64,000 nucleotides of DNA from Psammoneis japonica (GCA_008632985.1 QPGO01000118.1:62001-126000); one strand, 5' to 3'; positions 3,554 through 34,029 are shown, numbered from the stretch's first letter. The notes: generated by a model from the letters alone, not told the origin. Translations and numbers: made by a program.

Positions 3554-3774
3554 GATTGCAACTCCTGTTCGACTTCTCTTGCGCGTCCAGTTCTTTTCTT
3601 GCGTTGCTGTATGGATGCTATTGTGTGCCGTATTGTGCCTCGTGCCTCGTGGCGGGCGGTGTGTCAATTTCGCTCGCAAATCGGCTCATGCCCAAAGAAT
3701 GATCAAGCAGACTAATGCCAACAAATGCTGTCTGCACTGTGATGGACAAGCTGACAATTTCAAACGAGCCGAAA

Positions 3775-9929: not shown

Positions 9930-10537
9930 TGAATTGCACTGCAAACCATCTCTCTAAAAAGAATGTGTTGATTCAATTCAAGAACAACCCCAATCTTGAA
10001 CGCTTGTTGGCATGGGGTGCATGCATGATTTTCTCTCTGCACTCTGTTTTGTTTTCTTTGTCAAACTGCCACAAACACCGCCCTTTGGTCATGGCATGAC
10101 TTTTGTGTTTGGTGCTTTCCTCCACCGACTGACGACGATGACGAAACGTGTGATTGTTGGAATTCCCATCGAATCGCCTGGTGGCTGGATTAGGCCATGA
10201 CGGTGATGGCCTTGGTGTTGGGGATGATTCAAATGAAAACTGAGGGCTGCAACAAAACGACCATGACGTTGTTTGTAGGAATCGCCGCAGTGATCCATTG
10301 AGCTCGTTTGTGGGATTCATAAGTACGTCAGGACACTTGACGTGGCCTGTTGGCATTGTATTTGTTATGGCTACCCTTGCCGGCATTGTCGAGTTGGTGG
10401 CGTGTGCGTCGTTCCATTTGAGCGTGGGAGGTCATGTTTGGTATGATTTGTTTCTTCACATTGCCATGCTGGTGGCGCTCTTGCTGGCACCGTCTCCTGA
10501 AAATGGAACCAAGGAACCGAAACCGAAGGACGCGTAG
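9930..10537 (+). pseudogene. Membrane-protein gene copy 2 (5' half mutated, ~260-bp internal deletion)
   Basis: Aligns to 1900-2769; segment equivalent to ~2265-2525 is missing; 3' end nearly identical to copy 1. Confidence 0.85.
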
Positions 10538-10838
10538 CTTCGAATATATTCCAAAGTCATAACTGCTTGCACAGCCTCACATCTATTTTAATTTGCTATT
10601 CAGCACTATCCTCCTAAGCAGGCAATTCACTCTAGAATTCTGTGTCTGGCGGCTTGAGAGTGATAAATGATACTATTGTTTTTTAAGAATATACACAACT
10701 TTGTGGAATGCAAACATGTTGCATTTTCTTATCGCCCGTGGCTCGCCTTTACTCAAACAGAGCAGGACTCGAATGCCCAGCCCAGAGCAATCTCAATGAG
10801 AACAAGAGAGAACCTGGCAAGCGATCCGGGCTCGCAGA

Positions 10839-11321
10839 TTAGTTGATGGGCTGTTCGTTTCCATTGCCTTGCACATGGTGTGCTGGCCGTTGATGTCTCC
10901 TACGTCTCCTACGTCGTGCTCCTATAAGACGCATAAAGACCAAGATCCGATCTCCGTGCCGAATTCCGTACGAACGAACTAGGCGTTCTCCCACCAGCTG
11001 CTGTCCTCCGAAAAGCAGGCGCTGTTGATCAGCTGGAATACCATCAATATTCTGCATCGTTGCCATCAAATCATTTACCGTGTCGTTGTACCTGACAAAT
11101 GCTTGATATTTGCGATCTGTTGTGTTGCTGATCTTCACGTTGAAGCCCAACTGTGGGAGCCGCGCGCTCAGCTCTCTGTGTTCTTGTTCTACCTTCTTTC
11201 TGTTTTCTTGTTCTAGCTTCAGCTCTCTGTTTTCTTGTTCTAGCTTCTTGTTCTCCTCAAGGACCTCCAACATGGCTTTGTCGCGTGTGGCAGCGGCAAC
11301 AAAGCGGCCAAGATCTGTCAT
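10839..11321 (-). CDS. Coiled-coil + ubiquitin-like domain protein (copy 2)
   Basis: 483-nt CDS; I see only three substitutions relative to 3071-3553. Confidence 0.8.
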   Translation of the reverse strand: MTDLGRFVAAATRDKAMLEVLEENKKLEQENRELKLEQENRKKVEQEHRELSARLPQLGFNVKISNTTDRKYQAFVRYNDTVNDLMATMQNIDGIPADQQRLLFGGQQLVGERLVRSYGIRHGDRILVFMRLIGARRRRRRRHQRPAHHVQGNGNEQPIN

Positions 11322-11466
11322 GATTGCAACTCCTGTTCGACTTCTCTTGCGCGTCCAGTTCTTTTCTTGCGTTGCTGTATGGATGGATGCTAATGTTGTG
11401 TACCGTATTGTTCCTCGTGCGGCAAAGCGGCTGAAGTTCGGTGCGCGCACGCACGTGTGTCAGGCT

Positions 11467-12304: not shown

Positions 12305-14549
12305 TGAGGAGTCTATGCGTCGACCGTTCTTCGCGCGCGCGCTCGCACGCACCCGAAGGTCTCCTCATAGACTCTCGCGGAAGTAAGACGGACGATGTAC
12401 CAGGGTCGTATGTAGGCCGTTTGTTACGGTGCCGTTTTTCTGGACATGCCGCAAGCGCATCGTCTCATTGCTGTTATCGGCATGAACGACTCCCAAGGCT
12501 GTCTAGGGCTGGCACTGTAGAATGAATCTTTTGCAGCATTGGGACGTTTTGAGCACACCATGACAAAGCCCTGCAGTTGCACAACTGCTGCATGGCTCCT
12601 CATTCCATCATTCACAATCGGATGTGTTGACCCTTTTCTCTCGGCTCGATCGCGCTAGCCACACATCGAACCACGACCTGTGAACTGTCACGCCAGGTCA
12701 TTGAGCTGGCAGCAGTCCACCAGCAGTTGCCGCAGGAGGCCGAAAAGAGAAGGGAGGATGCAAGAAGTGAGAACATCCGTGACACAGGATTCAAGAGAGG
12801 CAACAAAATTGGAAACATCAATGCAAAAAACAGAAACATTCTCACCGGCAATTAACGCCAAGGAAGAGACACGACAGTGCCGCCGCTGAGCACTGAGAGG
12901 CGTGCCAAAGAATGCTGCTGAATCCCCACCAAGCCCATTGATCAGCCTGCGTTTTCGATCCACGCTGCGTCTCAAAGCAGGAGATCTTGCCAGAGGCGAA
13001 AACAAAAACTGCAATTGTTGAGTCACAGAAGCAAATTGTGAGCAAAATCACAACACCAACTTGCCAATTGGCCTTTGCACACATTCTTTTGTGTCTCATG
13101 TGTGTGTGTGCTTGTCGCTGCAACGGCATTTGTCTCATCCCATTGCTGGAGGCATTCACACTGTCGCGAACTGATGAAATCCTGCGCAAAGTGCAAGCCC
13201 CATTGAGTGAGTTTGAATGCCAACAATTAACAACACTGTCATGTGAGCTTGCCTCCTTGACTCAGTGTCACCAAATGAGCACAGCCAATGCACTCAAATC
13301 TGCCCAAGCGGCAAGAAATCGACACAACCGTCCAAAAATCTCCAAAAATGTCATGAAACAGTGACGCCCAACCAAAAATGAGACCCCAGACCATCTTTGC
13401 CTCAAATCTCAGAGCTGTGGTCAAACCACGCCTCATGCAGACACCAACAAACAACACCAAGGTGCTCCATGGACTGAGAACCTGCGTGACAACAAGGAAG
13501 AGCCCATTCCGTGAGTGAGCACATTTCTGGCAAAAAACACAAAGCCATTTGTTACAAACAACAGAAACAACGGTTGCGCCACAAGAAAGACAATGCCATT
13601 GCAAGCCAATGACGAAAATGCGCACAAATTTCCATGTCATAACTCACAGGGTGCAATGGAGCGGAGCATGCGACGACAATCAACGACACATGTCAGCACC
13701 TGCCGAAAAAGTGACGATTTTGCACTCAGTCAGTCTCGGGGATAAATCAATCAAATGTTTGCCAATTTTCTCTGTTCCAACACCATGGTGCGCTTCAACA
13801 GTGAGTGTCTGAACAACCACTGAATGGTGCAAGGCACAGCGGTCGATGCACCGATGAAATCGATCATCGTTGGAACGGCACATTTTCTGGCATGTTTTGT
13901 GTAGAAAGCTCTGCAGAGCATTTCGCAAAATCCAGGGAGGCATGGCAACAAATTTTGAGCCACCGTCCGTCCAGAAAACGCATCCGCAGCATGGCAAGTG
14001 CAGTCATGATGGCGGCATGGAAATCTGATTGGACAAATGACGTCAGCTAAGAACCTTGTTGTTCACAATGAGCAATGATGACATCATCCTCACCCCACCA
14101 TCTCCTGTCCACCCCGCCGCCCGCGCTGGCCGTGGCGATTTGCTGCGCCCCAACTCAAACTTCAAAAGAGAAACATTCACAAGCCCCAAGAGACTCAGCA
14201 AGACAACAACACATCATGACACACAAACAGCACAAACCACCCATGACAGCGGCAACTTTCGGACTGGCGAGCACAAAAATGACGCCATTGGAACCGCAGC
14301 ATTTTTGTCAGCACGTGTGTGTTGTTTCTCTTTTTGTTCAATGCAAGTGCGACCCTCTTGTGGGACAATTTCAGCAACTTTCAAGTGGAAAGTTTTGCAC
14401 CGTCCTTCTTGGGCCATTTGGTCCACCTGCTCTAAAATCATTTGACTCACAAATGACACCGTTCAATCCGCCATGTCTAAATTGCTCTGTGTGGCAGTTT
14501 CTGTGCACCCGGAGCCTTCGCACTTCAACCCACTTCCCTTGCTTGATGA

Positions 14550-16618
14550 TCAGGCAGCTTCCACCTTTTGCCTCTTTGATGGCTTCTGAACAACCATTGC
14601 TGCATCCTGCCCAAGACCTTCTTGAATGCTGGTCATGTCACGTCGTTCCTTCGCCACCAACTTCTTCCTTTTGGCCCGCTCATGCGCAAAGCACTGACAA
14701 CAGAAGGCAACATGTTCTTCCTTCAGACTGTTGACTGCCGCCACCTGCATCTCTCTGGGCAGTGAAGAGAACCGACCAATGGTTCGCAAGTCGAGCAGCA
14801 AAGACATGAGCTGTTGTTCGCTGCACTCGATCTCCCCGACTTCCACCAGCCTGTTGTTTGTGTTGTTGCCCAAGAATCGACGCTCGAATTCTGTTGTAGC
14901 CCACTCCAAACAAACCTGCCCAACAGCAGACAGGTTGCTCACTTTCACCTCTTGGCGCGGCAGCTTTGGACTCGTGTCGACTTGCTCGGGCACAACCATG
15001 GAAATTGTTTCGCCAGTCAACTGCTTGTAAGTCGTGGTCTTGATGATGCTTCCACACCCAGCAGCACGTAGCTTCTCATGCTGGGACATGGTTGTGAGCA
15101 GTTGACACGGATTGAGAACAGCCTCGAACTCTCGGAAATGCTGCCGCAACATGCTGTTGGTGCCGAGTGCACCCCTGTTGGCCATGTTGTAAAGTTCAAT
15201 CGCTCGTTGCATCCGAAGAGCCCAGCTGAGCAGCTGGAACTCTGCTGCAACCCGTGCACCATTCAAGTCCAGCTTTGGCTTCAAGGTTGCCACATTGTTG
15301 GTCTCCGCTAGATCCGTCAGCTTCGAAAAACGTTTTTTGCACCGGAAGTGCTTCGCGACATTCTTGGCATCATTCATCACTTCAACTCCTTCCGGGAATG
15401 GATTGACTGGCTTTTTGTCCTTAGAACGCACTGGGGCTCCAACTGCAGATGCCCCAACCTTGTCCCCATCATGCATGTCACAGCCCTCTGTGTCTTTAAT
15501 CTTGGGAAAGTCCCTGGAAACTCCAGTTGCGGCACGATCCGACACCATGGAGCTCAGCACATTGTTCAACTCCATTCCAGTGCGGTCACGAAAAGTGCCC
15601 CGAAACAGTTTTGCGACCGCTGGATCCGTGCTGTCTTTTGATCTTCTAAATCCCATGCAAACAACAAGATTTGCGCACCAACACGGATCAATGAATTGCA
15701 AACCAAATGATTGACACTTGTTGTGGTTTGCCAGCGTGACGCCATCATGAATCCCTTGCCCAAAATGGTTGCCATGACTCTGGGCCACTTTCAACTGAAG
15801 TGTGATTTGAAGGAATTGTTTGAAAACTTCAAACTCCGCTCTAACGTGTCCTCCGAGCTTGTGCCGGGTCATCAACGGGACATCGGGATTTGCAGCACGC
15901 ATCATCTCTTGGAAAAATTCGTCTTCAAAGGTTCGCCCAGATGTGAGTGGGTTTCCATGCACGCACCAGGCTCCCTGTGCTGACAGGTTTTTTTGTTTGC
16001 AGGTGAGCATGAACCCCAACTTTTGCTGCTTCTTGGGCTTCTGCGCATTCGAGTCAGACTTCTGGCAAGACTCGGTGGCAGACTTCTCCACTGAGCACTG
16101 CAGTTGATGATCCGCAAGCTCTTCCTAAAACAAAACAAGCAACAAATGCAAGTCATTGGCGAAAGACTCTTTGCTGACACATGCACCCAAGCATGCAACA
16201 AGAGGGAACTGACCTTTTTCTTTTCATCCCGAGCTCGCTTTTCATTGTTTTCAGGTGAGTCGACATGCCACTTTTGGATGTGATGCACGGCTTTGGCAGT
16301 GCCCCAATGATCCTTGCCTTTGGGTTTAACAAGTGTCATAAATGGTGACTCGCAACCTTCCACAGTGCAGATGTGAGTGCACTCTTTTGCCATTGGATGA
16401 GTCGCTTGCAACCTTTTGACAGTGTCCCACACCGTGGACTTGTTGGGCCGATGACCAGGGGTGTTGGCACGCGTCAAATGCATGGGGTCCGTCTTCCAGG
16501 GCTCCTCCTTGTCTTCGCGAGAAGCCTCTCTCCCACTTTCCTCGGATGCTTTCGTGGTGCCGAAAAATTCCGCATCTTCGTCGGTGCTGGCAATCATGGT
16601 GTTGTTGGCGGCACTCAT
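14550..16618 (-). pseudogene. hAT-family transposase, join(16618..16214,16124..14550)
   Basis: BED-like finger (STVWDTV..HICTVEGC..HIQKWH), GIHDGVT, VSDRAA, GCDMH (CxxH), LNGARVAA; in-frame 89-nt GT-AG intron; C-terminus decayed. Confidence 0.75.
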
Positions 16619-17116
16619 GGTGTCTCAGATTGACACCATGGTGCATGAACCAAAGTGCAAAACCTTGGAGAAAGAAAATGCAAAATGTTGTGAGAAGCTG
16701 GCGCATGAGACAATCATCGACAACAACAAAACAACAATTGTTGAAACATTTGTTGGAACTTGCGCATTGAACATTTTGTCATGAACCAACACAATGGTTG
16801 AGCAATTGCTGAACAAATGCGTGCATGATTGCTGAACAAATGCACGACACAATTGCTGAACAAACATGCCACAATTGTTCAGCAATGCAACACGATCCAT
16901 CCCCCACATTCCAAAATGATGCTGCAGGCCAATCCACAACCGTTTGTTCAGTCTGCCGACGAGTGTTGTTGTCATCACTGATGGTGCCGCTGCCGCGGCA
17001 CTTGCCGCAACGATGTCTGAGCGAGCAGTGAGCAGGTGAGAGGTGCGAGCTGTTTGCCATCTCTTGACACAATGGCTCAAATTTTGATTGCAATCGACTG
17101 CAACCACCGACTGCGA

Positions 17117-17722
17117 TTGCGACCTCGGCACATTCCCAACAATCGAGTCTTTGCAATCGAGTTTGCAGTTGCAACTGCAATCAAAGTGGGGCCGATTGCA
17201 ATCGATCCTGGCAATTGGGCAACACTGGTTAAATCTGACAGTGAAATTACACGCCATTCACACGGAGAGAGCCGATTTTTGTGGAATTTTCAGCACCGAA
17301 ATGCGGCTCGCATCTCCTCCTTGGCATCCGTCCTGACGGGATGAAGGCTTTGTTTGTCGTGCAGTGGAATGTAAACACAACAACTCCTGTTGACCACTTT
17401 TTGGAGTTTGTCCTTTGCCATTGCGACCTCGGCACATTCCCAACAATCGAGTCATTGCAATCGAGTTTGCAGTTGCAACTGCAATCAAAGTGGGGCCGAT
17501 TGCAATCGATCCTGGCAATTGGGCAACACTGGTTAAATCTGACAGTGAAGTTGCACGCCATTCACACGGAGAGAGCCGATTTTTGTGGAATTTTCAGCAC
17601 CGAAATGCGGCTCGCATCTCCTCCTTGGCATCCGTCCTGACGGGATGAAGGCTTTGTTTGTCGTGCAGTGGAATGTAAACACAACAACTCCTGTTGACCA
17701 CTTTTTGGAGTTTGTCCTTTGC
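17117..17722. repeat. Tandem duplication, 2 x 304 bp
   Basis: Near-identical units starting TTGCGACCTCGGCACATTCC at ~17117 and 17421. Confidence 0.9.
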
Positions 17723-18390
17723 TTTTTCGAAAAGAGCCTCGGAATCGAGAAGAGCATTTCGCGCACAACCAAAAAATTTGCTGTTGACAATGATGCAAGC
17801 ATGCGGGCGTGTTCACTCATTTCTCGCCAATTGTGAGCATGCGGTCGTGACAATCACTTAATTTGTCATAAGTCTTGTGAGTTTCATTGTGAAAGAATGC
17901 GATTGAGTCGCGTTGTCATGGCATCAAAGACCGGCATGCAAAATCTTCGTCGCCATTGTCTCGTCCGTGTGGTTCTACATGGTTTTAGTGCCAGGCCTGC
18001 AGCGATGCCCGCGTTTCGCACTCGCTGAAATGGGGCGAAATTTTGTCGCTCATTTGGTGGCAACGTTTCTTTACAAGATTCACAGCCCAACCGGCGCGAC
18101 CAAGACACCGCTGGAAAGCTGAGAAAGTCCTCTTTCGATCTTTGGCAATGAAAATGACACAAAAACAGTTCTGTGCATGCATTTTTCATAGAAAAATTTA
18201 GCCAAATGCGCATCAATGGCGCGCACCTCTGTGGGGCCCTGCAAGTGCCGGCACTCGTGCCTGCGGTGCCTGCTGCAGGTGCTGGGGGGCAACAATGATG
18301 TCAACATTGCTTGTTGTGAAGAACAAAGTTCACAGCTGACGTCGTTTGTCCAATCAGATTTCCATGCTGCCGTTGTGACCGCACTCACCA

Positions 18391-18559
18391 TGCAGCAACT
18401 CACTCGCACGCTTCTGACACATGGCACCAATTTTGGACATTAGATTGGTGCAGCCGTTTGAGAGAGGCTTGCCAGTGTTCGCCAACGCTTGGGCTCCCCT
18501 CTCTTCGGTCTGCTCACTTCTTTGTTTTGACATCAGTTTCAGCTTGAGCTTGCACTGCA
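18391..18559 (+). repeat. 5' LTR (169 bp)
   Basis: Direct repeat of 24066-24236, TG...CA ends. Confidence 0.9.
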
Positions 18560-18786
18560 ATTACAGTTGATTGTAAAGAGCTGAATGAGAAACAACGATG
18601 CAACTAACAGGCTTGCGAAACAAGAGAAAAGAACATTGAGAGCGAAGGCAGCGAATTGGGCTTTGGAACAAAAACAGCAAAAGGAGACACGAAAACAACG
18701 CGAGCAGGATTTGGCGATTCGGGTTGCACAACTCGAGTCGAAGGTAGAGTGCTTGAAGCAGTTTCTTGGAGGACCAACTTGGCCTG

Positions 18787-19938
18787 ATGAGCAATCGCGA
18801 GAGCCTTGAAGAACCGTGCATTTTGCATGTTGTGAAATTTGCTCATTCGGATTTGGAACTTGCAAAATTGACTCAATCGCATGATGATGGTGGCACGCGT
18901 ACAAAGAAGTGCCCTTGTTTTGACGGAACTGATGGCATTGAAGCGTTGTTGTTCGTGGAAGATTGTTTTCGTAAACTGGCTGCAAAACTTGAATTCACTG
19001 CAGGCGAAGAACTGTTTGACAATTTCGAGGAAGTGTCGACAGACACCGCTGAAGACAAATGGTCCAATCTCACCATGGCGATTCCGAATGTGCAGAAGAC
19101 GGTGGCTCGTTTTGACCAAGAATTGGCTCGTTTTTATTTGTCACATTGTGAAACTGAAGCGCGTGACACGATGATTGAATGCTTGCTCTCTCTTAAAAAG
19201 CCATGTGATGTTGAAGCACAGGCACACGCGGATCGAATGGAGACCTCAGTGCGACACACGAACAAGTTGCCGGGAAACAATCCAGTTGTCACTCAGAACC
19301 AGAAGAAGAAGATGATCTTCGACAGCTTCCCTTTGTCGTGGCGCGAGATGCACACAAGAGCAGGACGCACGATTGGAAATGACACGTTGGCGGAAATTGT
19401 CGCGCACATGAGCACGGAGAAATCATTTGCAGATGGGAACAAGAAGACTTCAAAGAAGCGCAAAGACAGACAGTCGAAAGGTGGCGGCTCTGCCAAGAAG
19501 AAAGGCAATCGCATTGACCCAGAATCTCAATGTCCTTTGCATGCTCACAATCACAAGTGGAAAGATTGCGCCATGAATCCCGACTCTGACAACTGCCGTC
19601 CAAGAACTGATCGCGGAGGTCACGGATGTGGTGGCCGTGGCGGTCGAGGTGGCGGTCGAGGTGGAGGTCATGGTTGTGGCGGAGCGCAAGGTCGTGGTTG
19701 GCAAGGCCGTGGCTGTCAAGGTCATGGTGGCGGCCGAGGAAACTACGGTGGTCGCGGAAACTGTGACTCTGGCGGCAACAGCGGCGAGCATCATGATGAT
19801 GGTGGCTCTCACATGCAACATCAAAACGACACCCGAACCAATGCAAATGGCAGCGGTTGCGGCAATCCGGCCAGAACGGCTCCTCCCAATGATTGGTCTG
19901 CTGAAAGCCATCATCTTGATTCGACAGGAGGGCCTTGA
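18787..19938 (+). pseudogene. Gypsy gag
   Basis: Open frame with CPLHAHNHKWKDC knuckle-like motif and Gly/Arg-rich tail. Confidence 0.8.
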
Positions 19939-20055
19939 GAGCATCAAGGTGGAACGGGAAGTTTTCGACCTGGCGGTCGCTTCTCGGGACGCGGTCGACA
20001 CTGACCCAATGAGCTTGAAGAGCTGTCGTCCGAGTGTGTCGCTCCTGATTCTTTT

Positions 20056-23000
20056 GTGTTTGATGATTGTGCTGATTGCGTTGATGATTGTTGTGCACAT
20101 GCTGCTGATTTATTTGATGATGATGATTTCGGAAATTGTGCCATGAATGACGAAGACGATGTGGGACTTGAGTGCGCTGCACCAACCCCAAAAACAAAAC
20201 CAATTGGACCATTGAATGTGGTCCCTACAACCTCATTCGCGGCGCGATTCATTCAAGACAAGGAAAGCAAGCACGTGATGCGGGTGTCACTTGATTCCGG
20301 TGGAACCCATTCAATGATTCATGCTCGGGTGTTGCCGGTTGGAGCGGCTCCAGCATTGGAAGAGACAGGACCAATTCGTGCAAAGTTTGGGACAACAGCA
20401 GGAGAATTCGAATCAACTCGTCATGTTCGACTGCAAGACTTGGTGCTCCCTGAATTCGACAAGACCAAACATGTTGACGGCATGCATGCGCATGTGTTTG
20501 ACTCACCCTGCCAATGTGACATGATCCTTGGACAGGACTTCTTGGCGAGAGCGGGTGTCACATTGGATTTTGAACACGGAATTGTCAAGTGGCTCGGTTC
20601 AAGCATTGCGATGAAGCCAAGGAATCAGCGGACTGGCATCCAGCAATGGCTCGATGATTTGACTGATGAGCTGGCCAATGATGATGACGTGTGGGATGGC
20701 CACATCCTCGATGCAAAGCATGAGGAGACGTCCCCTTCTGAAGCAGCTTCAGCTCAGAAGCATCTCACTGCCGAACAGCAAGAGAAATTGCGCCTCGCAT
20801 TGGAAAAACACACTGCTCTTTTTGATGGCACCCTTGGCAAGCATGCTGACGAAAAAGTTCACCTTGACATTGATCCCAACGCCGTTCCGCACCATTCTCG
20901 AGCATGTGCAGTGCCGCACAATGATCTCGAGACTTTCAAGCAAGAATTGGATCATTTGGTGGCTCTTGGCATTCTTGAAGAAGCCGGAACTTCGGAATGG
21001 GCTGCAGGTGCCTTTGTTCGGCCGAAGAAAGATGGTCGAGTGCGGTGGCTCAGCGATTTTCGGGAACTCAACAAAGCCCTCAAGCGCAAGGTTTGTCCCT
21101 GACGCATTCCAGGTCTAGGTGGGACCTCGCACTGCTGAACTGTGACATCGACAGTTTTTTGAATCACGTCGCATGTCGCGCACGTAGATTTCTACGTGAT
21201 TTTTTTGATGTTTTGTGTCATTTTACGGTGCACTTGTTGAGCGATCCGTCCAACAACTTTTTGACATTTTTTGTTACAGTGCGATTCTACAATGTCTTAA
21301 GAATCGCGTAGGGCAGGTGCATTTGCAAAAACGTCGAGTGGCAAGAGGCACAATTGCACCACAAACTTGGCCGTTTATTTGATGTTGAAGACAAACATGT
21401 CCATCAATTAAATTCTCGTACTACGGAGCTCGCACGTAGAATTCTACGGGCCCAATGTCACACGGAGTCCCACCTGGGGCTGGAACGCGTCCCCTTGCCG
21501 ATCATTCAAGATGTGTTGCAAAAGAGAGCCGGGTGCAAATTTCTTACAAAGTTGGATCTCTCAATGATGTGCTGTGCGTTTGAACTGGACGACGATTCCA
21601 AAGATCTGACGACAATCGTGACACCCTTTGGAAAGTGTCGATGCTGCTGTCCAGCAATGGGTTTGAAGCCGGCTCTGGATGTTGCGCAACACTTGATTGA
21701 GAAAACTGTGCATGACTTGGACGTTGACGCACATGTTGATGATCTCGCTCAATTTGATGACAATTTTGATGTTCACCTTGCTCGTCTCGACAAACTCCTG
21801 CAACGTTTGGAAGAAGCTGGATTTAATGTGAACCCTTTGAAATGTGAATGGTGTGTGCAGGAAACGGATTTCCTTGGGCATTGGCCAACTCCAACTGGAA
21901 TTCGTCCGTGGAAGAAGAAAGTGGAAGCCATTCTGCGAACGCAACCTCCGGAAAATGTCAAGCAGCTTCGTTCATTTCTTGGTGCTGTGACATGCTGTCA
22001 CAACATGTGGCCTCGGCATTCTCACTTGTTGAAACCCTTGACAGATCTCACAGGCAAAGGCTCGTGGACGTGGACAGCAGATTGTCAGACGGCGTTCGAA
22101 GAGATGAAAGCAGCACTGGCGGCCAAAACGTTGATGGCGCATCCGAATCACAACAAACCCTTCCACATCTGTGCTGATGCCAGTGATTGCCAAATGGGCG
22201 CAGTGATTGCACAAGATGGAAAACCCATTGCATGCTGGTCTTGAAAGCCAAACGCGGCGCAACAAAACTGCTCGACGATCGAAAAAGAACTCTTGGCCAT
22301 TGTCATGTGCTTTCACGAATTCCGAACGATGCTCCTTGGTGGCGACTTGCATGCATTCACCGACCACAAGAACCTTGCCTTTCGCACCTTGAATTCACAA
22401 CGTGTGCTCCGTTGGCACCTCTTTCTGGAAGACTTTGCCCCTCAATTCCATTGTGTCGAAGGCCGCTTGAATGTCTTGGCTGATTGTTTTTCTTGTTTGC
22501 CTCACATGGATCCTCCCTCTGAAGGGAAGAGCTTGGCTCCGGGTGAAGGAACTGTTGTTGATTTTGCTCCGCTCGATTCGAAGTTGGTGCCGAGTGAGGA
22601 ACCATCCAAAGTCGAGGATTTCCGCGATGAGGACTTGGAGCTCGGCGCATGCTGATTCAAGTGTTGTCGCAACATTGAAAATGAAGGCCACTCACACTTC
22701 TTCTCTTTCTTTGTTGATGAGCCGGAACTGTTCGACTCCTTTTTGAATTGCCCTGCGATGCAGGAGATGCAAAATCCAGCGGCGTTACAACGGATTCAAG
22801 AGTGCCAGTTCGAGGACCAACAATTGAACCAGATGCGCATTGCTCACCCTGATCGTTTCCTTGTGGAACATGTGAACAATCGACCACTTGTGTGTCATCG
22901 CGTGCGACCAAATGATCCTCCAGGACAGTGGAAAATCTGTTTGCCGACTGCGCTCATGCCCGACATTTTATGGTGGCATCATCTCGTCCTTGGCCATGCC

Positions 23001-23942
23001 GGAAGCCAGCGCATGCGTGAAACAATCCAGGCTCATTGTTGTCACCCTGGGTTGCGTCGCATGTGTGATGAACATTCTTGTGCTGATTGCCAACGTGACA
23101 AAACTTTGGGTCCTGGCTGTGGAGAGCTGCCCGAATGAGAAGCTCCATTGACTCCCTGGTCGGAAGTGGCGGTTGACCTCATTGGCCCGTGGAAAATCAA
23201 AGTGCCGAATGGAGAGATTGAGTTTCAGGCATTGACCTGTGTTGATCCTGTCTCCAATCTTGTTGAACTGGTGAGAATTGAGAACAAAGCTGCTCAACAT
23301 GTTGCCAACCAATTCGAAAACTGCTGGCTTGCACGCTGTCCCAGACCAAATTGATGCATCCACGACAACGGCGGCGAGTTCACTGGGTGTGAGTTTCAGA
23401 TGCCATTGCAACGAGCCGGAATTGATGATGTGCCGACCACTTCACACAACCCTCAAGCCAGTGCCATTTGTGAACAAATGCACCAGACTGTCGGCAATGC
23501 ATTGCGCACGCTCATTGCTTCCAATCCACCTCAAAACCTTCAGGATGCAGCCAGCCTCGTGGACGATGCTTTGGCAACTGCAATGTGTGCAACCCGCTGT
23601 GCTGTTTCCCATTCCTTGCAGATTTCACCAGGTGCTGTGGTGTTCGGACGTGACATGATCTTGGACATCCCAGTGCTGGCGGATTTGTTGACGATTCAAG
23701 GCCATCGCCAGACGCTGATCAACGACAACTTGCGACGAGCCAATGCCAAGAGAAGATCCTGCGATTGTCAAGTGGGTGATCAAGTTCCAATCAAGTGCAC
23801 TGAGCCATCCAGACTCGAGCCTCATGCTCATGGTCCTCACCCCATTGTTCAAGTGCATGTAAATGGCACACTCTCGGTTCGTCGAGCTCCTCATGTGGTT
23901 GAGTGCCTCAACACTCGGCGCCTGATTCCTTTTCGCGGTTGA
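20056..23942 (+). pseudogene. Gypsy pol (protease, RT, RNase H, integrase), interrupted by a MITE and several stops
   Basis: LDSGGT, KKDGRVRWLSDFRELNK, HVDD (YxDD position), DASDCQMGAVI, EKELL, VAVDLIGPW, HDNGGEF, NPQASAICE, HGPHPI (GPY position). Confidence 0.92.
21101..21491. mobile_element. 391-bp MITE inserted in RT, 4-bp TSD CCCT
   Basis: 25-bp imperfect TIRs GACGC(A/G)TTCCAG....AGGTGGGAC; removing it with one CCCT restores ...RKVCP-LPIIQD. Confidence 0.92.
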
Positions 23943-24065
23943 TCAGGGGGGTTTCTTCCCAACACCTGGGTTTCCTCCTGCTGTCATCTTCACTTTTGGT
24001 TTTGGTCCTTGGTTTTTGGCCCTTTGCATGATCCTCCAGTTCTTTTGGATCATGGAAGGGAAGAG

Positions 24066-24236
24066 TGCAGCAACTCACTCGCACGCTTCTGACATGTGGT
24101 GTCAATTTTGGACATTAGACCAACGCAGCCGTTTGAGAGAGGCTCGCCAGCGTTCGCTGACGCTCAGGCTCCCCTCTCTTCGGTCTGCTCACTTCTTTGT
24201 TTTGACATCAGTTTCAGCTTGAGCTTGCATGCCACA
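24066..24236 (+). repeat. 3' LTR (171 bp)
   Basis: Direct repeat of 18391-18559 preceded by a polypurine tract. Confidence 0.9.
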
Positions 24237-24498
24237 CCGCAGACACGTTTTCTGCCGTCCGTCTCACTTCCGTGAGAGTCTGCCAGCACATTGTCCCGGG
24301 AATGCAACCCATGTTGCATTGCGCAGTGTTTCTCCGTTGAATTCTGCACCTTGTGCTGACCGTCACCCCCACTTCAGGGACCGCATCTTCCATGTCATTG
24401 TGGAGGAAGCACGGGGATTTTTCCCGCATCGAAACAACCGGGTTGTTGCATGGTACGTCGCGTTTCTGACAGATTCATGCAACAATGCAACGGAGACC

Positions 24499-24815
24499 AT
24501 GCCATCTAAAAAGCACTGCAAGCCAACCTTGACAGCACTCACGTCATTTCTTGACGGGGTGACTTGTCAATGTGAACAAGACTTCACCAACCAGAGGCCA
24601 TTCAAACAACCCCCAACGATGTCGTGGTGGATGGATCTAAAGGCGTGTGGAACGCCCGAACCAGGCGACAACAGCTTGCCCACGCAAGCAAGGTCAAATT
24701 GGTTGGAACACTGGAAGAAGCCCATTTCCAGCCACGTGTCAAACCGATTGGTGCCGTGGAATGTTCTGTCAAATCAAGGCAACCCGACACGATCAACTGA
24801 CATAAAAAACCTTGT
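24499..24815 (+). pseudogene. N-terminal fragment of a Crypton-like tyrosine-recombinase transposon protein
   Basis: KACGTPEP..PTQARSNWLEHWKKPISS..NRLVPWN..GNPTRSTDI resembles stramenopile Crypton N-termini (recalled, not searched). Confidence 0.55.
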
Positions 24816-25668
24816 GCCATGTTTGACATTCATGTTTGACATTCTTTGTTACATGCAGTGCGTGTCTGGGGCTTCATTCTACCTTGTTCAATCCACAACA
24901 TCGCTGGAGCACCCCTTCCAATTGAAGCATGTTTTCTGTGCGCACGGCATCCAATAAATCCATCTGCACAGAATGGAATTTTGCACAACAAAACCAAGCC
25001 TCTTGGATTCCTTGTACAATTTCCATTGACAATGAAACAAGAGTCGCAAAAATCGGCCCAAGGGATGTTGAGATGTCACCGCCGCCAACTCTTGACCATA
25101 AATTCCAATGGCAGCTCAATTTTGATTATTCAACGATAAGTTCCGAAGAGAAAGTCAGCACCGAAAAAACCCAAGCCCCATGGACACCTTGTAGCACACA
25201 CGTCAAAATGATGACAAGAAGTGAGAAACAACACCAAAGACACAACAGCATGTCACAAAAATCCGTCATGTTGGTGCTGCATTCTCACAATTTTTGCACC
25301 GTACCTTCAGCGACAAATCCGCCTCGACGGAATGAACTCAACGCCAGCGCCACTAGACCATCACATTGCTTGTATAAAATCTCCGAATGCTGCAAAAAGA
25401 AACGGGAAAATACGGCAAAAATAGATATAGATATCAGCGACGCAAAGTTCGCCGCGCGTCTTGGAGGGTGCTGTAGGTTGATGTAGCGGAAGTCGGTGTC
25501 TGTGCTTTCCTGGTGACCCTGTAGAAGAAGTACTAGACCCTACGCAGTTGTACCCAGGGTTGTATTCTTTCCGTCTACCTACCTCCACAGTACCACCTTC
25601 GGGTGCGTGCGAGCGCGCGAGCGAAGAACGGTCGACGCATAGACTCACGATGGAGAGTGATGCCGACC

Positions 25669-27207
25669 GACCAGGACAAAACGGGTGACAGCGCGCATCA
25701 CGCGCACAGAAATCCACAACATTCCGATTCAAAAACAACCAACCGTCACCTCGCTCCATGACCGTCAGTTTGTTGCGTCCGTCTCATCCCGGTGGCCTGT
25801 ATTGTTGCTGTACGACACATCAGATCCCCTATTCATCCGCTATGGGCAAAGAAGGCTGCTGATCACTGGTGTATCACGTTCTCGATAAAGATGGAATGTC
25901 GTTTGATGACTTATGCACCATTTTTCGGCACAGAGCGACAGTGCGTGGCAGGTAGAGACGACTCGTTTATTGTGTATGTTGACACCAACTGGCTTGTCTC
26001 GGAAATGTAGCAATCATGTCTATGGACTTATTATTGGGAATAGGCAGCAGTGTAAGTGGCAACCGTGTGCCTTGTTGCGTGCCAGCAGTTGTGTGTGTCT
26101 GCACTTGCACTTGATTTATCTATTGCTTTGGATACACTTCTTTATTATCCCACGTAAGACATATGGAGTGGGCTTTGTTAAGAATTCAGACGTTGCCATG
26201 GGTCGGAAGACTATGTTTCTAAAGAATCTTCCATGTCAATGATGGCGCACTGCTTGTTGCAGACAATGGATTATGGATTCATGGATGGCACACGCGACGG
26301 TACAATTGCGGATGGCATACGTGTGGCATATTTCTTGGTTCAAAGCATGATCATGGAACAGACAGCGGCTCTTTACTTGGAATCACACTTGGTCGTTCCA
26401 ACAGTGTTGATGATGGCGCACTACTCGGTGCAGACAATGGATTCATGGATGATGGATGGCAGAGGGCTCGCCGCCTCTAACACTTTGGGACCATGCTATT
26501 GTGTCTGCAATCGTCAAGGCCAATCCTAGACTGCTGAATTCAACGCCAACCGTTTGAAGGTGGGTTCATGGCTTTGAAAAGTGTGATCCGTACCGCACGA
26601 ATCATCTTGTCTCGGCATACGGCAGTGGTGCAGCACCCATGCCAACACACTAGAACAACACATCTCATGTGCTTGAGCGTTTTTGAGACGAGTTCATGAA
26701 ACGCTTGTCTTTGGTGCATGCAACAGGGACAATTTGAACTTGTTCTGTCGAGTCACAGTTACAGTAATATGACAAGGTATAGATTGCCTGCTTGCTGCGA
26801 GTAGAGAGTAGATAAGACTCAGATGGTCCTAGTGACAGAATGTTAACAAGTGACAAACACACATGCTAAAGATGGATAGGTTCACTGTCCATGTCTCGGA
26901 GCTGTCGGGACATGTTTAGGGTGGCTTCAAGGTCAACTCCATAGCGCCATGCCGTTGAACAATCGTGTGACACATGGCTTTCCAGGCTAATTTTATGCCC
27001 AAGCCTGCACTGTAAATGTGCATTGTTAATAACTGCTTCTTTTTACTGACAATGAAGGAGTTGTTTTGATCTTATTGTATCTAACAACCTTGTCACCTGC
27101 CATTCTCGTAACCGCTTGATGTTAGCGGAGGCTTTTGACATTTGGGATCTTACCTCGATTTTTTGCGCACGAGGCGCGCTGTCACCCGTTTTTTAATTGT
27201 CCTGGTC
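25669..27207. mobile_element. 1.5-kb non-autonomous TIR element carrying a host-gene fragment
   Basis: TIRs GACCAGGACAA(..)AACGGGTGACAGCGCGC at 25669-25714 and 27157-27207; internal PSxxPS-coding remnant on - strand ~26240-26460. Confidence 0.75.
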
Positions 27208-27320
27208 TCCATTTCGCTCGCAAATCGATCATGTGCCCAAAGAATGATCAAGCATAGACCAATGCCAACAATGCTGTCTGCACTGTGATGGACAAGCTGA
27301 TAATTTCAAATGAGCCGAAA

Positions 27321-30300
27321 GATGCTCGTTCGGCCTCTTGAGGTGATCTGAATGCAGGTGCCAAAACCAACTGAATGGGGAGTGGTGGGACTTCACTGGC
27401 GCAGCTGGTCCCCCCCAGTCCCACCCAACAAGCTGAAGCTCTGCATGGCCAGTGGGAGGGAGAGGTGGGAGCGCTTTTGGCCATCCAGCCAACTCTTGTT
27501 TCCAAAGCTCTTTGGAAGAATGAGAGGCAAGCAGCAAACTCATGTGCCAGCTTGGTGCCATGCGTTCAATGTTGGTGATGGGGAGAATGACCGACCTGCC
27601 ATTGAGTCATCAGCTGGCAACGGATCATCTGCACCCCCCCTTTTTTTGGCCCACATGAGGCCAGTGACTTGCACTGCTTTGCTCATTTGGCCTCTTGTGG
27701 TGATCTGAATCTGGGTGCCAGAACCTGGCTGAAGAATGATGGAGAAGAGTTGAGTGTCTGCAGTGCGCACCGAGGGGGCAGCAGTGCACTCTGTGGGATG
27801 CAGCAGAAAGAAGAATTCCAAGGTGGGTGACTGGCCATCATGTTGGCTGGTGCTTGCAAACCAGGTGGTTGGTTGAAGATGCAGCACACAGGATCCAAAA
27901 GAGGATGGTGACAGGGACCAGCCAGTTGGGCACCGCCGGAGGGTCTTCTTCTTTCTTGTGGAAATGTGTTTGGCGGGCAAGTCAGAAATCCATGTTGACT
28001 TGTTGGGGTGTGCAGCATGGATCTGGGCCCCCCATTGTTGCAGCAAACATTTGGCCAATTGAGTGCAGGGCACACTTGGCGGTTCTTGCCTGGACGATGA
28101 GGTTGCCCCTCTGCTGGGTGCAATGATGCCTGTGCAGTGTTGGTGCAGCATTGAGACCTGAAAGAAGACAACCGGGTCTTCGACATCTTGAAGTGGAGGG
28201 TTGATGGCCAGATTGATGCAAAATTTTCACCAGTTTGTCCCAGCAGGTGCAGCAGGAGGAGGAGGCAGAAGGGGTGATGCCATGGGCAATGGCGCACTGC
28301 ACAGCACTCTGAGGTCGCACAGGAGTGCAGTGCAGATGACGGGGTCCAGAGCCACCAGGATGGAGCCTGTGGATGGTGAGTGTCAAAATGGCACAGAAAG
28401 GTGTGGTTGGACAATGACTGCAAGCGTCATGAGGCATTGTCAGCAGCTGCTAAAAGCAGGCTCAGAAAGCAATCATCAAGGGAGAGGCAGCAGTGGTGGC
28501 GGTGATGCTGGCCCCGGTGGCGGAGGAGCTTGGAGGCTGCTTTTGCTGTGGCAGTGGAGCCTTTGCATTGGCAGTGCTTGTTGGACAACCAGATGCTGAT
28601 GCCACTGACGCTTGTCAGTGGCACACAGAACCAAAGCAAAAACAGATTTCACTTTTTTTGTTCTCGCCAAATTGTGGCCCAGCACTTTTCCAACCTTCAT
28701 GATGCCAGCTCAATCTTTCAAACTGAGTTGCCACTTGTCAATTCTTTGTCATTGTTGTTCAACCTCTTTCAGAGCCAGGAAACCATGTCACTCCATTTGA
28801 CATGTGTTTCTTGTGAGAATCAACAGCACCTTCACTGAGTTGTGACTGAGATCCACCCAGTCATTGCGCGAGTCCCATTTGACTCTTGTTTTGTGACAAG
28901 TGCAATGTGGGTCAGCATTGTTGTGACCAGCCATGATGGGGCCCCTGGGGTTTTTGCAGGTGGCTGAATGGCCGGCGATCATCTGCAACATGTTTTGGTG
29001 CTTGTGTCAAGAACGAAACGTGTTGATGAACAAAATTGTTGCATGCATGCCATCTCTGTCCACCAGTCTTCAATGTGCTTGCTTGTCAATTGTGCACTCT
29101 TGCAAACGTTCATTCTTCATCCACAAACAATCTGATTGTGAAACTTGTCAACAAACAAAATCATTGCAAATGTGCTGCTGCAACTCTGTCCATCCATTTT
29201 CAATTTGCACAGTTGTCAATTGTGCATCTTGCAAATGTCAAGTAAAAAACAATTTGACCATTTTTTCCCTTTTTAAGTTGTTGATGCCTGTGTGGCCCGT
29301 TTTGCGGTTGGCAGACACACATTTTTTCACACCACACCACACACAACATCGACACCAACAGCTGCAATGATGTGATGATTTTGTCTTTGCCATTGGGACA
29401 GAATCACCATGGCAGGGAGAGTTGCCAGTTTTGCACCACGGACTTCTGCACCAAATCCGCGCCACATCTGTTGTCCATCAGTGCCATCAAATCTTTCCTC
29501 CCTGCCCCAAGTGTGCCACGCACAGCACACACACATGGCAAGTTGGAAGTGTCCAAGTCATTGCTTGCTGAGAACAGCACTGCAGCGTGGAGTTGGCTCC
29601 GTTCACAAATTTAATGTTGCCTGGACAATGCTGCATGGGCAGGAGTGCTGCTGTGAGTTAACAGAAATGCAATGTGCTGAGTGCAATGATGGTGTTTGTT
29701 TGTTGGTGCCTCCCAAGTTTCTGGTGATTTCATTCCTTTTAGATGGCTGGCGTGTTTGGAGCATTTTTCCCTGCCGCCACTGACAATGTCAATGAACGAT
29801 CAACCATGGGATGAAACAAGTTCTGGCGAGTGAGTGTGCTGTCTTTCAAGCTGTTTCTCTCTTTCAGCACTGCTGCATTTGTCACTTTTTGTCCAACCCA
29901 TTTATTTGCTTCTTGCAGAGGTAGAATTTGTGCACACACCCAGCTCATTGCTTGCTGTCACTGAATCGCCTTCTCATGCTCCGTGGCAAGTGCATCCAGC
30001 ATGCATTCTCTGCATTGACTCATTTTGTTTTTTCTCAACCTCTTTGTTTTGCAATGATGTCTGTTCCCAGTTCTGCAGAAAAATGATGCACAATTGGGTG
30101 ACAAAGAAGAGAGCACAGGGGTGCAGCGCCATTGCTGTGACTGCTGCTGCTGGGAGCGCGGCACCATTTGGGTGACAAGAAAGGATGAGCTGCCACTGTG
30201 ACTGCCACAATTGCTGCTGTGTGACTGTTTTTATTTGCAACTCTGGTGGGGCGAGAACTGCTGCTGCTGTGACCTCTGCTGCTGCAATTGCTGTGGAAGG

Positions 30301-33300
30301 GGATTCCTTTGGTTGGTTGACAACAATGGGACAAGGTGCAGTGCCATGGTGGATGTCCCATGCACATTCTCAGTGCAGACTCTCTTTCTTTGTTTCCTCA
30401 ACCTGCTTGTTTTGCATTGACATTTGTCCCTGCGGCTGTTCCAACAATGGGGTGACAAGAAGGGGACAGGGCATCACTGCAGCACTCTCACTGTGAATGC
30501 TGCTGCAACTGCAGCCATGGCTGTTGTTGCTTGCGACTCTGGTGGGGCAACAACTGCCACTGACTGCTGCTGCTGTGACCACTGCTGCTGCTGTGACAGT
30601 TGGTTGGCAAGAATGGGACATGGTGTGATGCCACGGTGGATGTCCCATGCACGTTCTCTTTGTTGTTCATCAACATTTGCCTCTGCTGCTGCTGCTGCAA
30701 TTTCTGTGGTTGGGCAACAAGAAGGGGATGCAGTGCCAGTTGGGCCATGAGAAAGGCACTTGGCACTGCTGCTGCTGCTGCTGCTGCTGCTGGAACTGTC
30801 ACTTGGGACTGTGGTGGGGTGGCACATTTTCCACCAAATTGTCAACATTGACATTTGTTGGCGGAAACACCCCACTCTCCACCCACGGAACATTCAAGGT
30901 GCCAAACAGGGCATGCGCTGCACTCATGATGCTGACACCATTTGATGCCAAAGGTTGGCTCAATTGCTGCGACAATGGATTGAGTCTGGACACCAAATTG
31001 CAGTGTGTCTTACAAATGACATGGTTTGTCCTGTGCAGGACCTGGTTTGCAATTGCCATCCATCATTTTTGTCCATTTGCTGTTGGATTTCTGCTGAGCA
31101 CTGTGGCTGGGTGACATGCAGCCTCTGCTGGCTCACTGCTCTCTGCTCCAGCTGGCAGCCCCTAAAATGGATCAAGCAACATCTTAATCTGCACACAGTG
31201 CTGCACACAATGTCAGCCTGACTGTTTTTTGCAGATGGCAGCAATGGATGTTTTCCCACCATGGCAAGAGTCCTGCATTGACCAGTTGGTCCACATCATC
31301 CTGCTTCTTCTTGTTTGACATTTTCTTGACTCTCCAAAGACATTTTCAAAGGCATCTCCAGTGCTCTTCTTTCTCCATTTTGACCTGAACCCTGACAATG
31401 ACTTTGGCAAGCACACCCCCGCCCAGCACTGCAGGAAGAGAAGCACTGGGAACAGCAGGGAGAGTTGCTCAGATTTAAACTTGCCAAGGCATGGTCTTTG
31501 CATCTCACAAAGAAAGCAATGGTGCCACTGCTTGGAAAGCCATTGCCAGATGACAGAGACTGGGAAGAATGTCTCATCTTCTTCCCTCTTGCCATCGCCA
31601 CAAATGAGGACAATGGCCGCAGTTCATCAGCCACACATCCTCAGTTCCAAGGGGTTCACTCTGGTGGTGAGTTTTGTGACATGTCTTGCTGGTGTCTCCA
31701 GCAGGAGCAACAAGCTTGCTGGGTGGATGGTGCATGATGCATGGGCCAGTGCCACTTGAAAAACTAAAATGGAGCATGTGGTGGTGGTCCAGATCATCAT
31801 CATCACACCATCAGCACACATTGGTTTGAGTTGCTGCCTGCACAACACGCACCCCGAATGCACTTAGCCTGCATTTGTTGAGTGGCTTCTTGACCCAACT
31901 GCGGTGTCTTTGCACTCTTGATTTTGGAAGCTGCAAGCCTTGTCTTGGGCAGCAGCAGCAGCCCCTTGCACATGATTCCTCCACACAAGAAGATGCCCAG
32001 CTGCGCACAAGGTGAGGAGGCAGTGCCCACCAGCCAACCTGCAAAAACAACAAGGGAACCATCTGTGTGATGATGCAAGCACTCCATTGTCTTGGGATGG
32101 CTTTTGGTGGCTCAACCTGCAAGAAAGACAAGGGAGCCATCTGTGTGACAGTGCAAGCACTCCGTTGTCTTGGGATGGCTTTTGGTGGCTCAACCTGCAA
32201 GCAGGACAAGGGAGCCATCTCTGTGACAGTGCAAGCACTCAGTTGTCTGGGGATGGGCACAAGAGGCTCTGTTGGGTCCAGGAGGAGGCAGCAACAACAG
32301 TGGACTTTTGCCGATGCACAGCCCCTTTTCTTTCTGATGTGATTGGCTTGCTTTGGTGACCCAGCCACCCCACTTGCAGAGGCAAGGCAGGGAGCTTTCT
32401 GTGTGACAGCACAAGTGCCCGGATGTCTTTTGCTGGCCATGGGTGATTCCATTGTGTCCCAGGAGAGCCAACACCAACCTTGGTCGGGGAGCAAAGGCTT
32501 GTCTTGTGTCAATGATGTGGCCCCTTTTCTTTTTGACATGACTGGGGGTGGGCTTCTTTGGTCCAGCCAACACACCTGTGCAGAGACCATGGAGTGAAGC
32601 AAAAACACATTCACTGCAGAAATGACAAAACACAGAGCTGGCACAATCACATTGCAAGCAACACACAGCCAATGTGCGAGCATCTTAATGAGACAAATGA
32701 ATGTTGCAGTTGTCAGAAATGCACAATGTTGCAGAGCAGCTGCAATTGCATCCTTGTCAAGAAGTTTCATTGATCATCATTTCCCACTTGGAAGGTGGCA
32801 TTGATTGTGAACATGAACTGAATCATTTCAAAACCATTGTGGTCACAATCTTGTCAAGATCAAACAAAGAATTAGAGTCATTTTCATTTGAGTGTCAAGT
32901 CCCACTTGGAGTGTTGAAATGATCATCAAAATTGCTTCATGCACAATTGATGAGCACTTGTTAAGAACACAGGATTCTTAACAAGCAAGTGCAAGTTCTG
33001 AACAAGAGCCACAACATTTTCTAGATGATGGCTCATGAAAATGGCATTTGCTGTGCAATTGGTCCTGAGTCCATTTGAGGCCTTGATCAGGAATGCGGCC
33101 CATGTGGGAACACCTCAAAGTTGTGTGATGTGGGATGGTGTTTGGTGTCAGAAGTGCAGTGCTGACAGCACCATGACTGGCTGCATTGTGGCAGCTGGTG
33201 ACCATTGGCAGAAGTGGCGCCAGCTTGTCAGTTCTTGGAAATTGTCCAGGATTGAGCAAAAGTTGGTGGCAAAACAGACTTGGTCATCCAATGTTGTTTG

Positions 33301-34025: not shown

Positions 34026-34029
34026 GAGT

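What the first reader, a model, noticed from the sequence alone, without database searches (positions are those of the whole stretch)
18391..24236. LTR pair records independent post-insertion mutation; reversing it restores perfect termini
LTRs are identical at insertion, yet these differ reciprocally (CACATGGCAC vs CATGTGGTGT; GCCAAC vs GCTGAC; CTTGGG vs CTCAGG). Undoing TA>CA/TG turns the ends TGCAGCA and CACTGCA/TGCCACA into TGTAGTA...TACTACA, a perfect 7-bp inverted terminus. The changes therefore arose in chromosomal DNA on both strands, not by RNA editing or RT error, and LTR-divergence dating would overestimate the age.
Basis: partly seen in the sequence, partly recalled or inferred. 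Interest (0 to 1): 0.75.

Follow-up and report, generated by a model that had tools for sequence, protein, structure and literature searches.

The report
TpA hypermutation in a diatom retrotransposon

Summary
The element is a Ty3/gypsy-type retrotransposon in a diatom, with 164-bp LTRs at 18391-18554 and 24066-24229. They differ at 16 positions, all transitions. Other copies in the genome place 10 of these at five TpA sites hit on opposite strands, 3 beside a TpA and 3 at CpG. Over 16 LTR pairs, TA-CA and TA-TG differences number 30 and 30, with 6 transversions in 2,630 columns. Tyrosines conserved in outside homologues read Cys or His in 290 of 320 cells. A DNA transposon and a target-site duplication are hit too, and neighbouring hits are not strand-coordinated. 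So post-insertion mutation of chromosomal DNA on both strands is confirmed, and LTR dating is inflated about 14-fold. CA versus TG alone does not prove a TpA origin, because CpG decay gives the same pair. LTRs that keep TpA also keep CpG, which points to silenced chromatin as the target. Closest known: TpA hypermutation in Bigelowiella (2026 preprint). The enzyme is unknown. This scan already noted the process elsewhere in this genome.

The parts
18386..18390 (+). Left target-site duplication, CACCA
   Evidence: differs from the right copy by CA versus TG at its first two bases
18391..18554 (+). 5' LTR, 164 bp, TGCAGCA...GCTTGCA; 1 TpA and 6 CpG left
18757..19938 (+). Open frame in the gag position, with a Cys/His cluster and a Gly/Arg-rich tail; gag is inferred from position only
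   Evidence: ORF; no Pfam match
20005..21102 (+). Aspartic protease piece and start of RT
   Evidence: PF13650, E 2.8e-4, below the curated cut-off
21101..21491 (.). Nested 391-bp non-autonomous DNA transposon (MITE-like) with terminal inverted repeats and 4-bp duplication CCCT; keeps 14 TpA against up to 28 in other copies, so it is younger than its host
21492..22655 (+). Reverse transcriptase and RNase H, broken by a stop; no Tyr in the 250-residue RT piece; the catalytic motif reads HVDD at 21732
   Evidence: PF00078, PF17919, PF17917
22656..23942 (+). Integrase region, broken by stops; zinc-binding domain detected, core inferred from position
   Evidence: PF17921
24054..24065 (+). Polypurine tract GGAAGGGAAGAG abutting the 3' LTR
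   Evidence: shared by 3' LTRs of other copies
24066..24229 (+). 3' LTR, 164 bp; 1 TpA and 9 CpG left
24230..24234 (+). Right target-site duplication, TGCCA
13000..25000 (.). TpA-depleted island that holds the element (TpA observed/expected 0.05-0.15 outside the nested insert, against 0.59 in the gene block at 35.8-54.8 kb)

Best explanation
SHOWN: after this retrotransposon inserted, a process acting on chromosomal DNA converted A:T to G:C at TpA steps. Each site was hit once, on either strand, independently of its neighbours, giving TpG or CpA and almost never CpG, until about 92% of the TpA sites were gone. Slower CpG decay ran alongside. Both LTRs lie inside a mutated island, so they diverged reciprocally, and all conserved tyrosine codons became Cys or His, which leaves the copy dead. 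INFERRED: the target is set by location in a silenced, probably CG-methylated transposon domain and not by pairing of repeats. The likeliest chemistry is enzymatic deamination of the adenine (A to inosine, read as G) by a TadA/ADAT-type deaminase that prefers a 5' T, acting in episodes over many cell divisions as a host defence. I put about 0.95 on the shown part, 0.7 on chromatin-domain targeting and 0.5 on adenine deamination.
For: LTR pairs, 16 elements: TA-CA 30, TA-TG 30, CA-TG 44, transversions 6 in 2,630 columns; 151 of 216 mismatched columns lie at TpA-type sites, 39 at CpG. Against the real copy L042, TpA sites read TG 44%, CA 40%, TA 12.5%, CG 0.6% in six sister copies. Polarity from outside the genome: 20 Tyr columns conserved in 50 homologues read C 186, H 104, Y 26 of 320, while F is kept 294/304, W 220/224 and H 159/160. 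DNA level: the MITE shows TA to CA 96, TG 73, CG 0 over 25 copies; target-site duplications differ at such sites here and in MITE copy L083; two near-identical copies of one insertion (C295, C26; probably haplotypes) differ by 33 TA-versus-TG/CA changes and 3 transversions in 11,818 bases. No strand coordination at any distance (correlation -0.04 to 0.04). Rate about 300 times the non-TpA A>G background (1.27 versus 0.0042 per base). Domain targeting: LTR TpA count tracks the adjacent flank (rho 0.61, n 32); LTRs that keep TpA keep CpG 80/81 versus 129/171. Enzyme-like context: 3' base T 3.7, C 2.9, G 2.0 relative to A; the second A of TAA changes mostly together with the first (TGG 25/465 versus TAG 2/496). 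Precedent: bioRxiv 10.64898/2026.01.13.699255.
Against: Sequence alone cannot tell whether the A or the T is attacked. No enzyme was found: the genome shows a small deaminase set with no expansion. Methylation was not measured. Copy L042 lost 18% of CpG, near its sisters' 22-25%, yet at most 32% of TpA against 85-93%, so methylation alone does not suffice. The flank rule has exceptions: 2 of 8 asymmetric elements disagree, and 5' LTRs are spared more often than 3' LTRs (11 versus 3), which could reflect promoter activity. A small sense-strand excess remains (raw TG 1574, CA 1201; context-corrected 1.14). Spread into flanking DNA was not significant (p 0.16). A defensive purpose is inferred, not shown.
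Confidence: 0.6

Rival explanations
1. Same targeting, other chemistry: the thymine of TpA is modified, or an error-prone repair or replication step in silenced chromatin puts C opposite A. It may be a by-product of silencing and not a defence.
For: The end products are the same. TpA loss and CpG decay are spared at the same edges. No dedicated deaminase stands out. Tandem TAA-to-TGG changes could come from a repair patch.
Against: Strict dinucleotide specificity, about 300-fold. No Tet/JBP match, though that search rang nowhere and shows nothing. TpA loss is uncoupled from CpG decay in L042.
Confidence: 0.25
2. A homology-triggered process like fungal RIP but with opposite chemistry: repeated DNA is recognised by pairing.
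For: Only repeat-rich DNA is hit in the window. Diatoms have DNMT4 enzymes related to RID (PMC9998398, passages), and the genome has several C5 methylases, not assigned to families here.
Against: The closely linked LTR pair, the best RIP substrate by recalled knowledge, is often the spared part: L033 LTRs differ at 1 base while its interior lost 70% of TpA. Many copies of a very abundant MITE keep 26-28 TpA. No strand-coordinated runs. The Bigelowiella target is single-copy.
Confidence: 0.1
3. Editing of the RNA or cDNA intermediate (ADAR or APOBEC type), or RT error, before integration.
For: Small sense-strand A>G excess; two A_deamin-domain genes in the genome.
Against: Both directions occur in every copy (window 70 TG, 71 CA); the LTRs of one copy differ; a DNA transposon and target-site duplications are hit; no coordination along a strand.
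Confidence: 0.02
4. Ordinary methyl-CpG decay, or assembly error, explains the CA/TG pairs.
For: CpG decay is real: 39 of 216 LTR mismatch columns and 17% of this copy's CpG sites.
Against: TpA-type and CpG-type sites are separate classes, with 12 of 435 showing both. Tyr codons cannot hold CpG at the changed step. Contigs of run X1 show the same transition excess, 181 transitions and 16 transversions (X1 may be the source sample, so it is not independent).
Confidence: 0.02

Closest known systems
TpA hypermutation of integrated giant-virus and virophage DNA in Bigelowiella natans (Mettrop et al., bioRxiv 10.64898/2026.01.13.699255; parts 1-3 of 5 read, plus term look-ups; supplements not seen)
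   Same: TpA to TpG or CpA in nuclear DNA of foreign origin, both strands, orders of magnitude above background, uneven between lines or copies; an ADAT-type deaminase is proposed, not shown.
   Different: There: a rhizarian, two viral regions, rate measured directly, modest long-term depletion, only indirect hints for transposons; the words diatom and LTR do not occur in the text. Here: a stramenopile, LTR and DNA transposons near saturation, spared edges shared with CpG, a measured flanking-base preference and tandem hits.
Repeat-induced point mutation (RIP) of ascomycete fungi (abstracts; details recalled)
   Same: Repeat-restricted, dinucleotide-specific transition hypermutation that kills transposons and inflates LTR divergence.
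   Different: RIP is C to T, mostly at CpA, and creates TpA; this destroys TpA. RIP is triggered by homology; here paired LTRs are often spared.
CG methylation of transposon islands in diatoms by DNMT5 (PMC9998398, passages)
   Same: [quoted passage not shown]
   Different: The passages seen describe silencing, not TpA mutation. Methylation was not measured in this genome.
ADAR and APOBEC editing of retroelements (recalled; PMC2873906 seen only as a listing)
   Same: ADAR favours a 5' U, as cited in the Bigelowiella preprint.
   Different: Those act on RNA or cDNA and leave one-strand clusters; here both strands, no clusters, and DNA transposons too.
Ty3/gypsy LTR retrotransposons of diatoms
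   Same: TG...CA LTRs, 5-bp duplication, PR-RT-RH-IN order, polypurine tract; named homologues come from diatoms such as Cylindrotheca, Pseudictyota and Ditylum.
   Different: The element itself is ordinary; only its mutational record is unusual.

Membership tests
Ty3/gypsy LTR retrotransposon | Direct LTRs with TG...CA ends and a 5-bp target-site duplication | tested here: met
   14 of 17 copies have a perfect duplication; here CACCA/TGCCA
Ty3/gypsy LTR retrotransposon | Domain order protease-RT-RNase H-integrase | tested here: met
   (protease match below cut-off)
Ty3/gypsy LTR retrotransposon | tRNA primer-binding site, and RT phylogeny within Ty3/gypsy | not tested
   A conserved stretch follows the 5' LTR but was not matched to a tRNA; no tree was built
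Bigelowiella-type TpA hypermutation | A:T to G:C changes confined to TpA | tested here: met
   minor extra class at the second A of TAA
Bigelowiella-type TpA hypermutation | Acts on nuclear DNA of foreign origin on both strands, sparing host genes | tested here: met
Bigelowiella-type TpA hypermutation | Rate per generation about 1000-fold above background, active in some lines only | tested here: inconclusive
   About 300-fold relative to a background that is an upper bound; copy L042 lags its sisters; no per-generation data
Bigelowiella-type TpA hypermutation | Same enzyme | not testable with these tools
   The enzyme is unknown in both organisms; ADAT2/TadA-like genes are present here but such genes are universal
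Fungal RIP | C:G to T:A transitions at CpA | tested here: not met
   CA or TG to TA is rare outside L042's own reference effect; TpA is destroyed, not made
Fungal RIP | Triggered by sequence duplication | tested here: inconclusive
   Paired LTRs often spared and abundant MITE copies often untouched, but no single-copy target was tested
Fungal RIP | Needs RID and the sexual phase | not testable with these tools
   C5 methylases present, not assigned
ADAR/APOBEC editing of retroelement intermediates | One-strand, clustered changes fixed before integration | tested here: not met
Methyl-CpG decay | CpG to TpG/CpA in methylated DNA | tested here: inconclusive
   The sequence signature is present for 3 of 16 mismatches; methylation itself was not measured

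The most novel reading that the evidence does not exclude
A host DNA adenine deaminase is steered to silenced chromatin and rewrites TpA in any resident mobile DNA: a second, chemically opposite RIP-like defence shared by diatoms and Bigelowiella, and so perhaps ancient in the SAR group. Because all tyrosine codons contain TpA, it would strip essential tyrosines from transposon proteins. It would be a natural genomic A-to-G editor, and 7 of 239 outside homologues suggest it works in further organisms.
Probability: 0.35. Interest if true: 0.9.

Novelty: new variant of a known kind. Interest (0 to 1): 0.66.

Why it matters
If the process is enzymatic, it is a natural A-to-G editor of chromosomal DNA, an activity that base-editing tools had to be evolved to gain (recalled). 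It would extend a phenomenon found in print for one rhizarian alga to diatom transposons and make it measurable, because LTR pairs and nested insertions give direction, context and relative rate. In practice, transposon ages, codon and amino-acid statistics and repeat annotation are biased in such a genome: LTR distances are inflated about 14-fold where the LTRs are hit and not where they are spared.

Tried and rejected
Terminus reversal: rejected on real copies. Strand-coordinated, processive hits: not found. Spread into flanking DNA: two ends show 0 TpA in the first 200 bp (L032 3', L044 3') but the group test is not significant. MITE TpA count versus flank TpA: weak (rho 0.35, p 0.08), probably because insertion ages differ. 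Secondary CA-to-CG or TG-to-CG mutation: rare. Search for a special enzyme: 9 matches to PF00383, of which the seven translated look like dCMP deaminase, TadA-like, ADAT2-like and other routine genes by my reading; two A_deamin loci, where the Atlas gave only generic hits or none; no Tet/JBP match, uninformative. DNA of outside relatives: the metagenome scan returned no locus. Runs: no RNA holder listed. Other open frames in the TpA-poor islands: 0 of 38 matched Pfam. No tRNA gene in the window. A citation for the TadA context preference was sought and not found, so that likeness is recalled only. Look-alike notes from other genomes: none. Rows dropped: C26 was left out of family counts as a near-duplicate of C295; L049 and L050 held one LTR each; the L034 3' LTR is truncated and was cut to 148 bases. 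25 of 41 MITE matches were analysed, and these are the ones closest to the window copy.

Full report
What is there. Positions 18391-24229 hold an LTR retrotransposon with protease, RT, RNase H and integrase domains in Ty3/gypsy order, a polypurine tract, and a nested 391-bp MITE-like insert at 21101-21491. Named homologues of a neighbouring host gene and of the RT come from diatoms. The LTRs are 164 bp, align without gaps and differ at 16 positions, all transitions. TpA observed/expected is 0.054 in the element without its insert and 0.59 in the gene block at 35.8-54.8 kb.

The terminus claim fails. A search of the genome gave 40 LTR matches. I examined 30 as loci and fetched 16 further full-length copies and 2 single LTRs. 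In 14 of 17 full-length copies a perfect 5-bp duplication lies flush with the 164-bp ends. Of 34 LTRs, 28 begin TGCAGCA, none begins TGTAG, and 33 end GCTTGCA, including nine that keep 8 or more TpA. The inverted terminus is TGCA, 4 bp. Whether a founder once had TpA there cannot be told from these copies. The duplication itself reads CACCA and TGCCA, a CA/TG pair outside the element.

Direction of change. CA versus TG can come from TpA or from CpG, so it needs polarising. Of 435 sites showing both states among 16 copies, 164 also show TA, 214 also show CG, 12 show both and 69 neither. For this LTR pair, other copies put 10 mismatched columns at five TpA sites (18420-21, 18425-26, 18446-47, 18483-84, 18490-91), three next to a TpA (18427, 18445, 18448; the script classed 18427 as TpA-type because of a two-copy variant) and three at CpG (18449, 18470, 18476). 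An independent test uses proteins from outside the genome: at 20 tyrosine columns conserved in 50 homologues the 16 copies read Cys 186, His 104 and Tyr 26 of 320, and this copy 15 Cys, 5 His and no Tyr, while Phe, Trp, Cys and His columns are kept at 97-100%. Against the least-changed real copy, L042, TpA sites read TG 44%, CA 40%, TA 12.5% and CG 0.6% in six sisters.

After insertion, in DNA, on both strands. Sixteen LTR pairs show 209 differences in 2,630 columns: TA-CA 30, TA-TG 30, CA-TG 44 (two columns each), CG-TG 23, CG-CA 15 and 6 transversions. Copies of the window's subfamily differ by 5.4-7.3% transitions but 0.1-0.6% transversions. The MITE, taken to be a DNA transposon from its inverted ends and 4-bp duplications, shows TA to CA 96, TG 73 and CG 0 in 25 copies. 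Its copy here keeps 14 TpA of up to 28 inside a host that kept 8%, as expected for a later arrival. Two near-identical copies of one insertion (C295, C26) differ at 97 of 11,818 bases, with 33 TA-versus-TG/CA changes and 3 transversions, so the process ran after they split. Outcomes at neighbouring sites are uncorrelated at all distances, unlike one pass of an enzyme over one strand. Against full symmetry: whole elements show TG 1574 versus CA 1201, or 1.14 after allowing for context (90% interval 1.02-1.36), while this copy shows 70 to 71.

Rate and dating. This copy lost 198 of 215 TpA-type sites and 54 of 317 CpG sites. Per base that is about 1.27 and 0.09 hits, against backgrounds of 0.0042 and 0.0051 that include pre-insertion change: roughly 300-fold and 18-fold. 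LTR pairs differ by 7.9% overall but by 0.57% outside TpA, adjacent and CpG sites, about 14-fold. This pair has a K2P distance of 0.109 and no difference outside those classes. The bias is not general: L033 has LTRs one substitution and one indel apart while it lost 70% of its TpA sites.

What sets the target. LTRs next to TpA-rich flanks tend to be spared (rho 0.61, n 32, p 2e-4; 6 of 8 asymmetric elements agree). Spared LTRs keep CpG too, 80 of 81 against 129 of 171. In four copies with TpA-rich flanks the first and last 200 bp lost 30% and 47% of TpA against about 80-100% in most inner bins. Diatom genomes are described as isolated CG-methylated transposon islands (PMC9998398, passages). 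I infer that the mutator follows that kind of domain. Two results complicate this: L042 lost CpG almost like its sisters but far less TpA, and 5' LTRs are spared more often than 3' LTRs (11 to 3). Something beyond methylation switches the process on.

Chemistry. Read on the A strand, the hit rate depends on the 3' base (T 3.7, C 2.9, G 2.0, A 1) and falls with G two bases upstream (0.5). The second A of TAA changes in 25 of 465 cases where the first changed and in 2 of 496 where the site is untouched (15 of 909 where the T changed). This resembles a deaminase with bystander hits; the likeness to TadA preferences is recalled, and I found no passage to cite. The genome has TadA-like and ADAT2-like genes and two A_deamin genes, with no expansion. 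None can be tied to the process.

Range. Of 239 outside RT homologues with enough columns, 7 show Cys or His at half or more of the Tyr columns and 219 at under 10%. Two of the 7 were searched in this genome and match at 58-59% at best, so they come from other, unnamed organisms. Named records from Cylindrotheca (6), Ditylum (3) and Pseudictyota (1) lack the signature. Gene calling favours unbroken copies, so this is a hint of a patchy range, not a survey.

Known or new. Seven literature searches on this question found one description of TpA-to-TpG/CpA hypermutation, in Bigelowiella natans (bioRxiv 10.64898/2026.01.13.699255; parts 1-3 of 5 read), and none for diatoms; the library lacks most subscription journals. 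The finding works like that process and meets its sequence-level features; shared machinery is untestable here. It is not RIP. The scan's own notes report the same process many times in this genome (588 notes hold the words); they are unchecked and not counted as support. What this locus adds is a 17-copy gypsy family with outside polarity, the shared sparing of TpA and CpG, one uncoupled copy, the tandem signature, and a correction of the terminus claim.

Verdict. Observation partly confirmed, interpretation partly supported, new variant of a known kind, interest 0.66.

Noticed in passing
window 2525-3645 and 10293-11420; second copy at about 27200-35435: A large element with 1.1-kb direct repeats, 97.5% identical and TpA-normal (23 differences, 8 transversions), around an interior that has lost nearly all TpA and most CpG. 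No Pfam match in its open frames. A clear case of spared ends.
   Followed up: partly
window 21101-21491: Very abundant MITE-like family (1,582 candidates; depth about 2,000 times single-copy in run X1) with GACGCG... ends and variable 4-bp duplications; superfamily not identified. Of 25 copies, most sit in TpA-poor islands.
   Followed up: partly
L042 = G000:C160:15500-22950: Copy with near-normal CpG decay but little TpA loss; unexplained uncoupling.
   Followed up: partly
L090, L091, L092 (G000:C301, C297): C5 DNA-methylase genes that lie in TpA-depleted DNA (observed/expected 0.07-0.10), probably carried by mobile elements and mutated with them.
   Followed up: no
L095 (G000:C40) and L096/L097 (G000:C79): Two A_deamin (ADAT1/ADAR-type) genes; one is expected for tRNA editing by recalled knowledge, so the second is a candidate worth a phylogeny.
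   Followed up: partly
L010/L024 (copy L033) and L016 (copy L036): The same T-to-A variant occurs in the 3' LTR of one copy and the 5' LTR of another, hinting at recombination or conversion between copies.
   Followed up: no
window 17112-17730 and 59394-59952: Recent tandem duplications of about 304 and 338 bp spacing, 97-98% identical, inside TpA-poor islands.
   Followed up: no
window 58000-62500: Island with both TpA (0.025) and CpG (0.07) erased, probably an older stage of the same two clocks.
   Followed up: no
proteins P0149, P0246, P0254, P0260, P0283, P0302, P0360: Gypsy RT proteins from unnamed records with the same Tyr-to-Cys/His signature.
   Followed up: partly
window 39512-42519: Two tandem MYND-finger genes, 70% alike over 430 bp; nearby TLDc, PP2C, kinesin, MFS and methyltransferase genes with normal TpA.
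   Followed up: no
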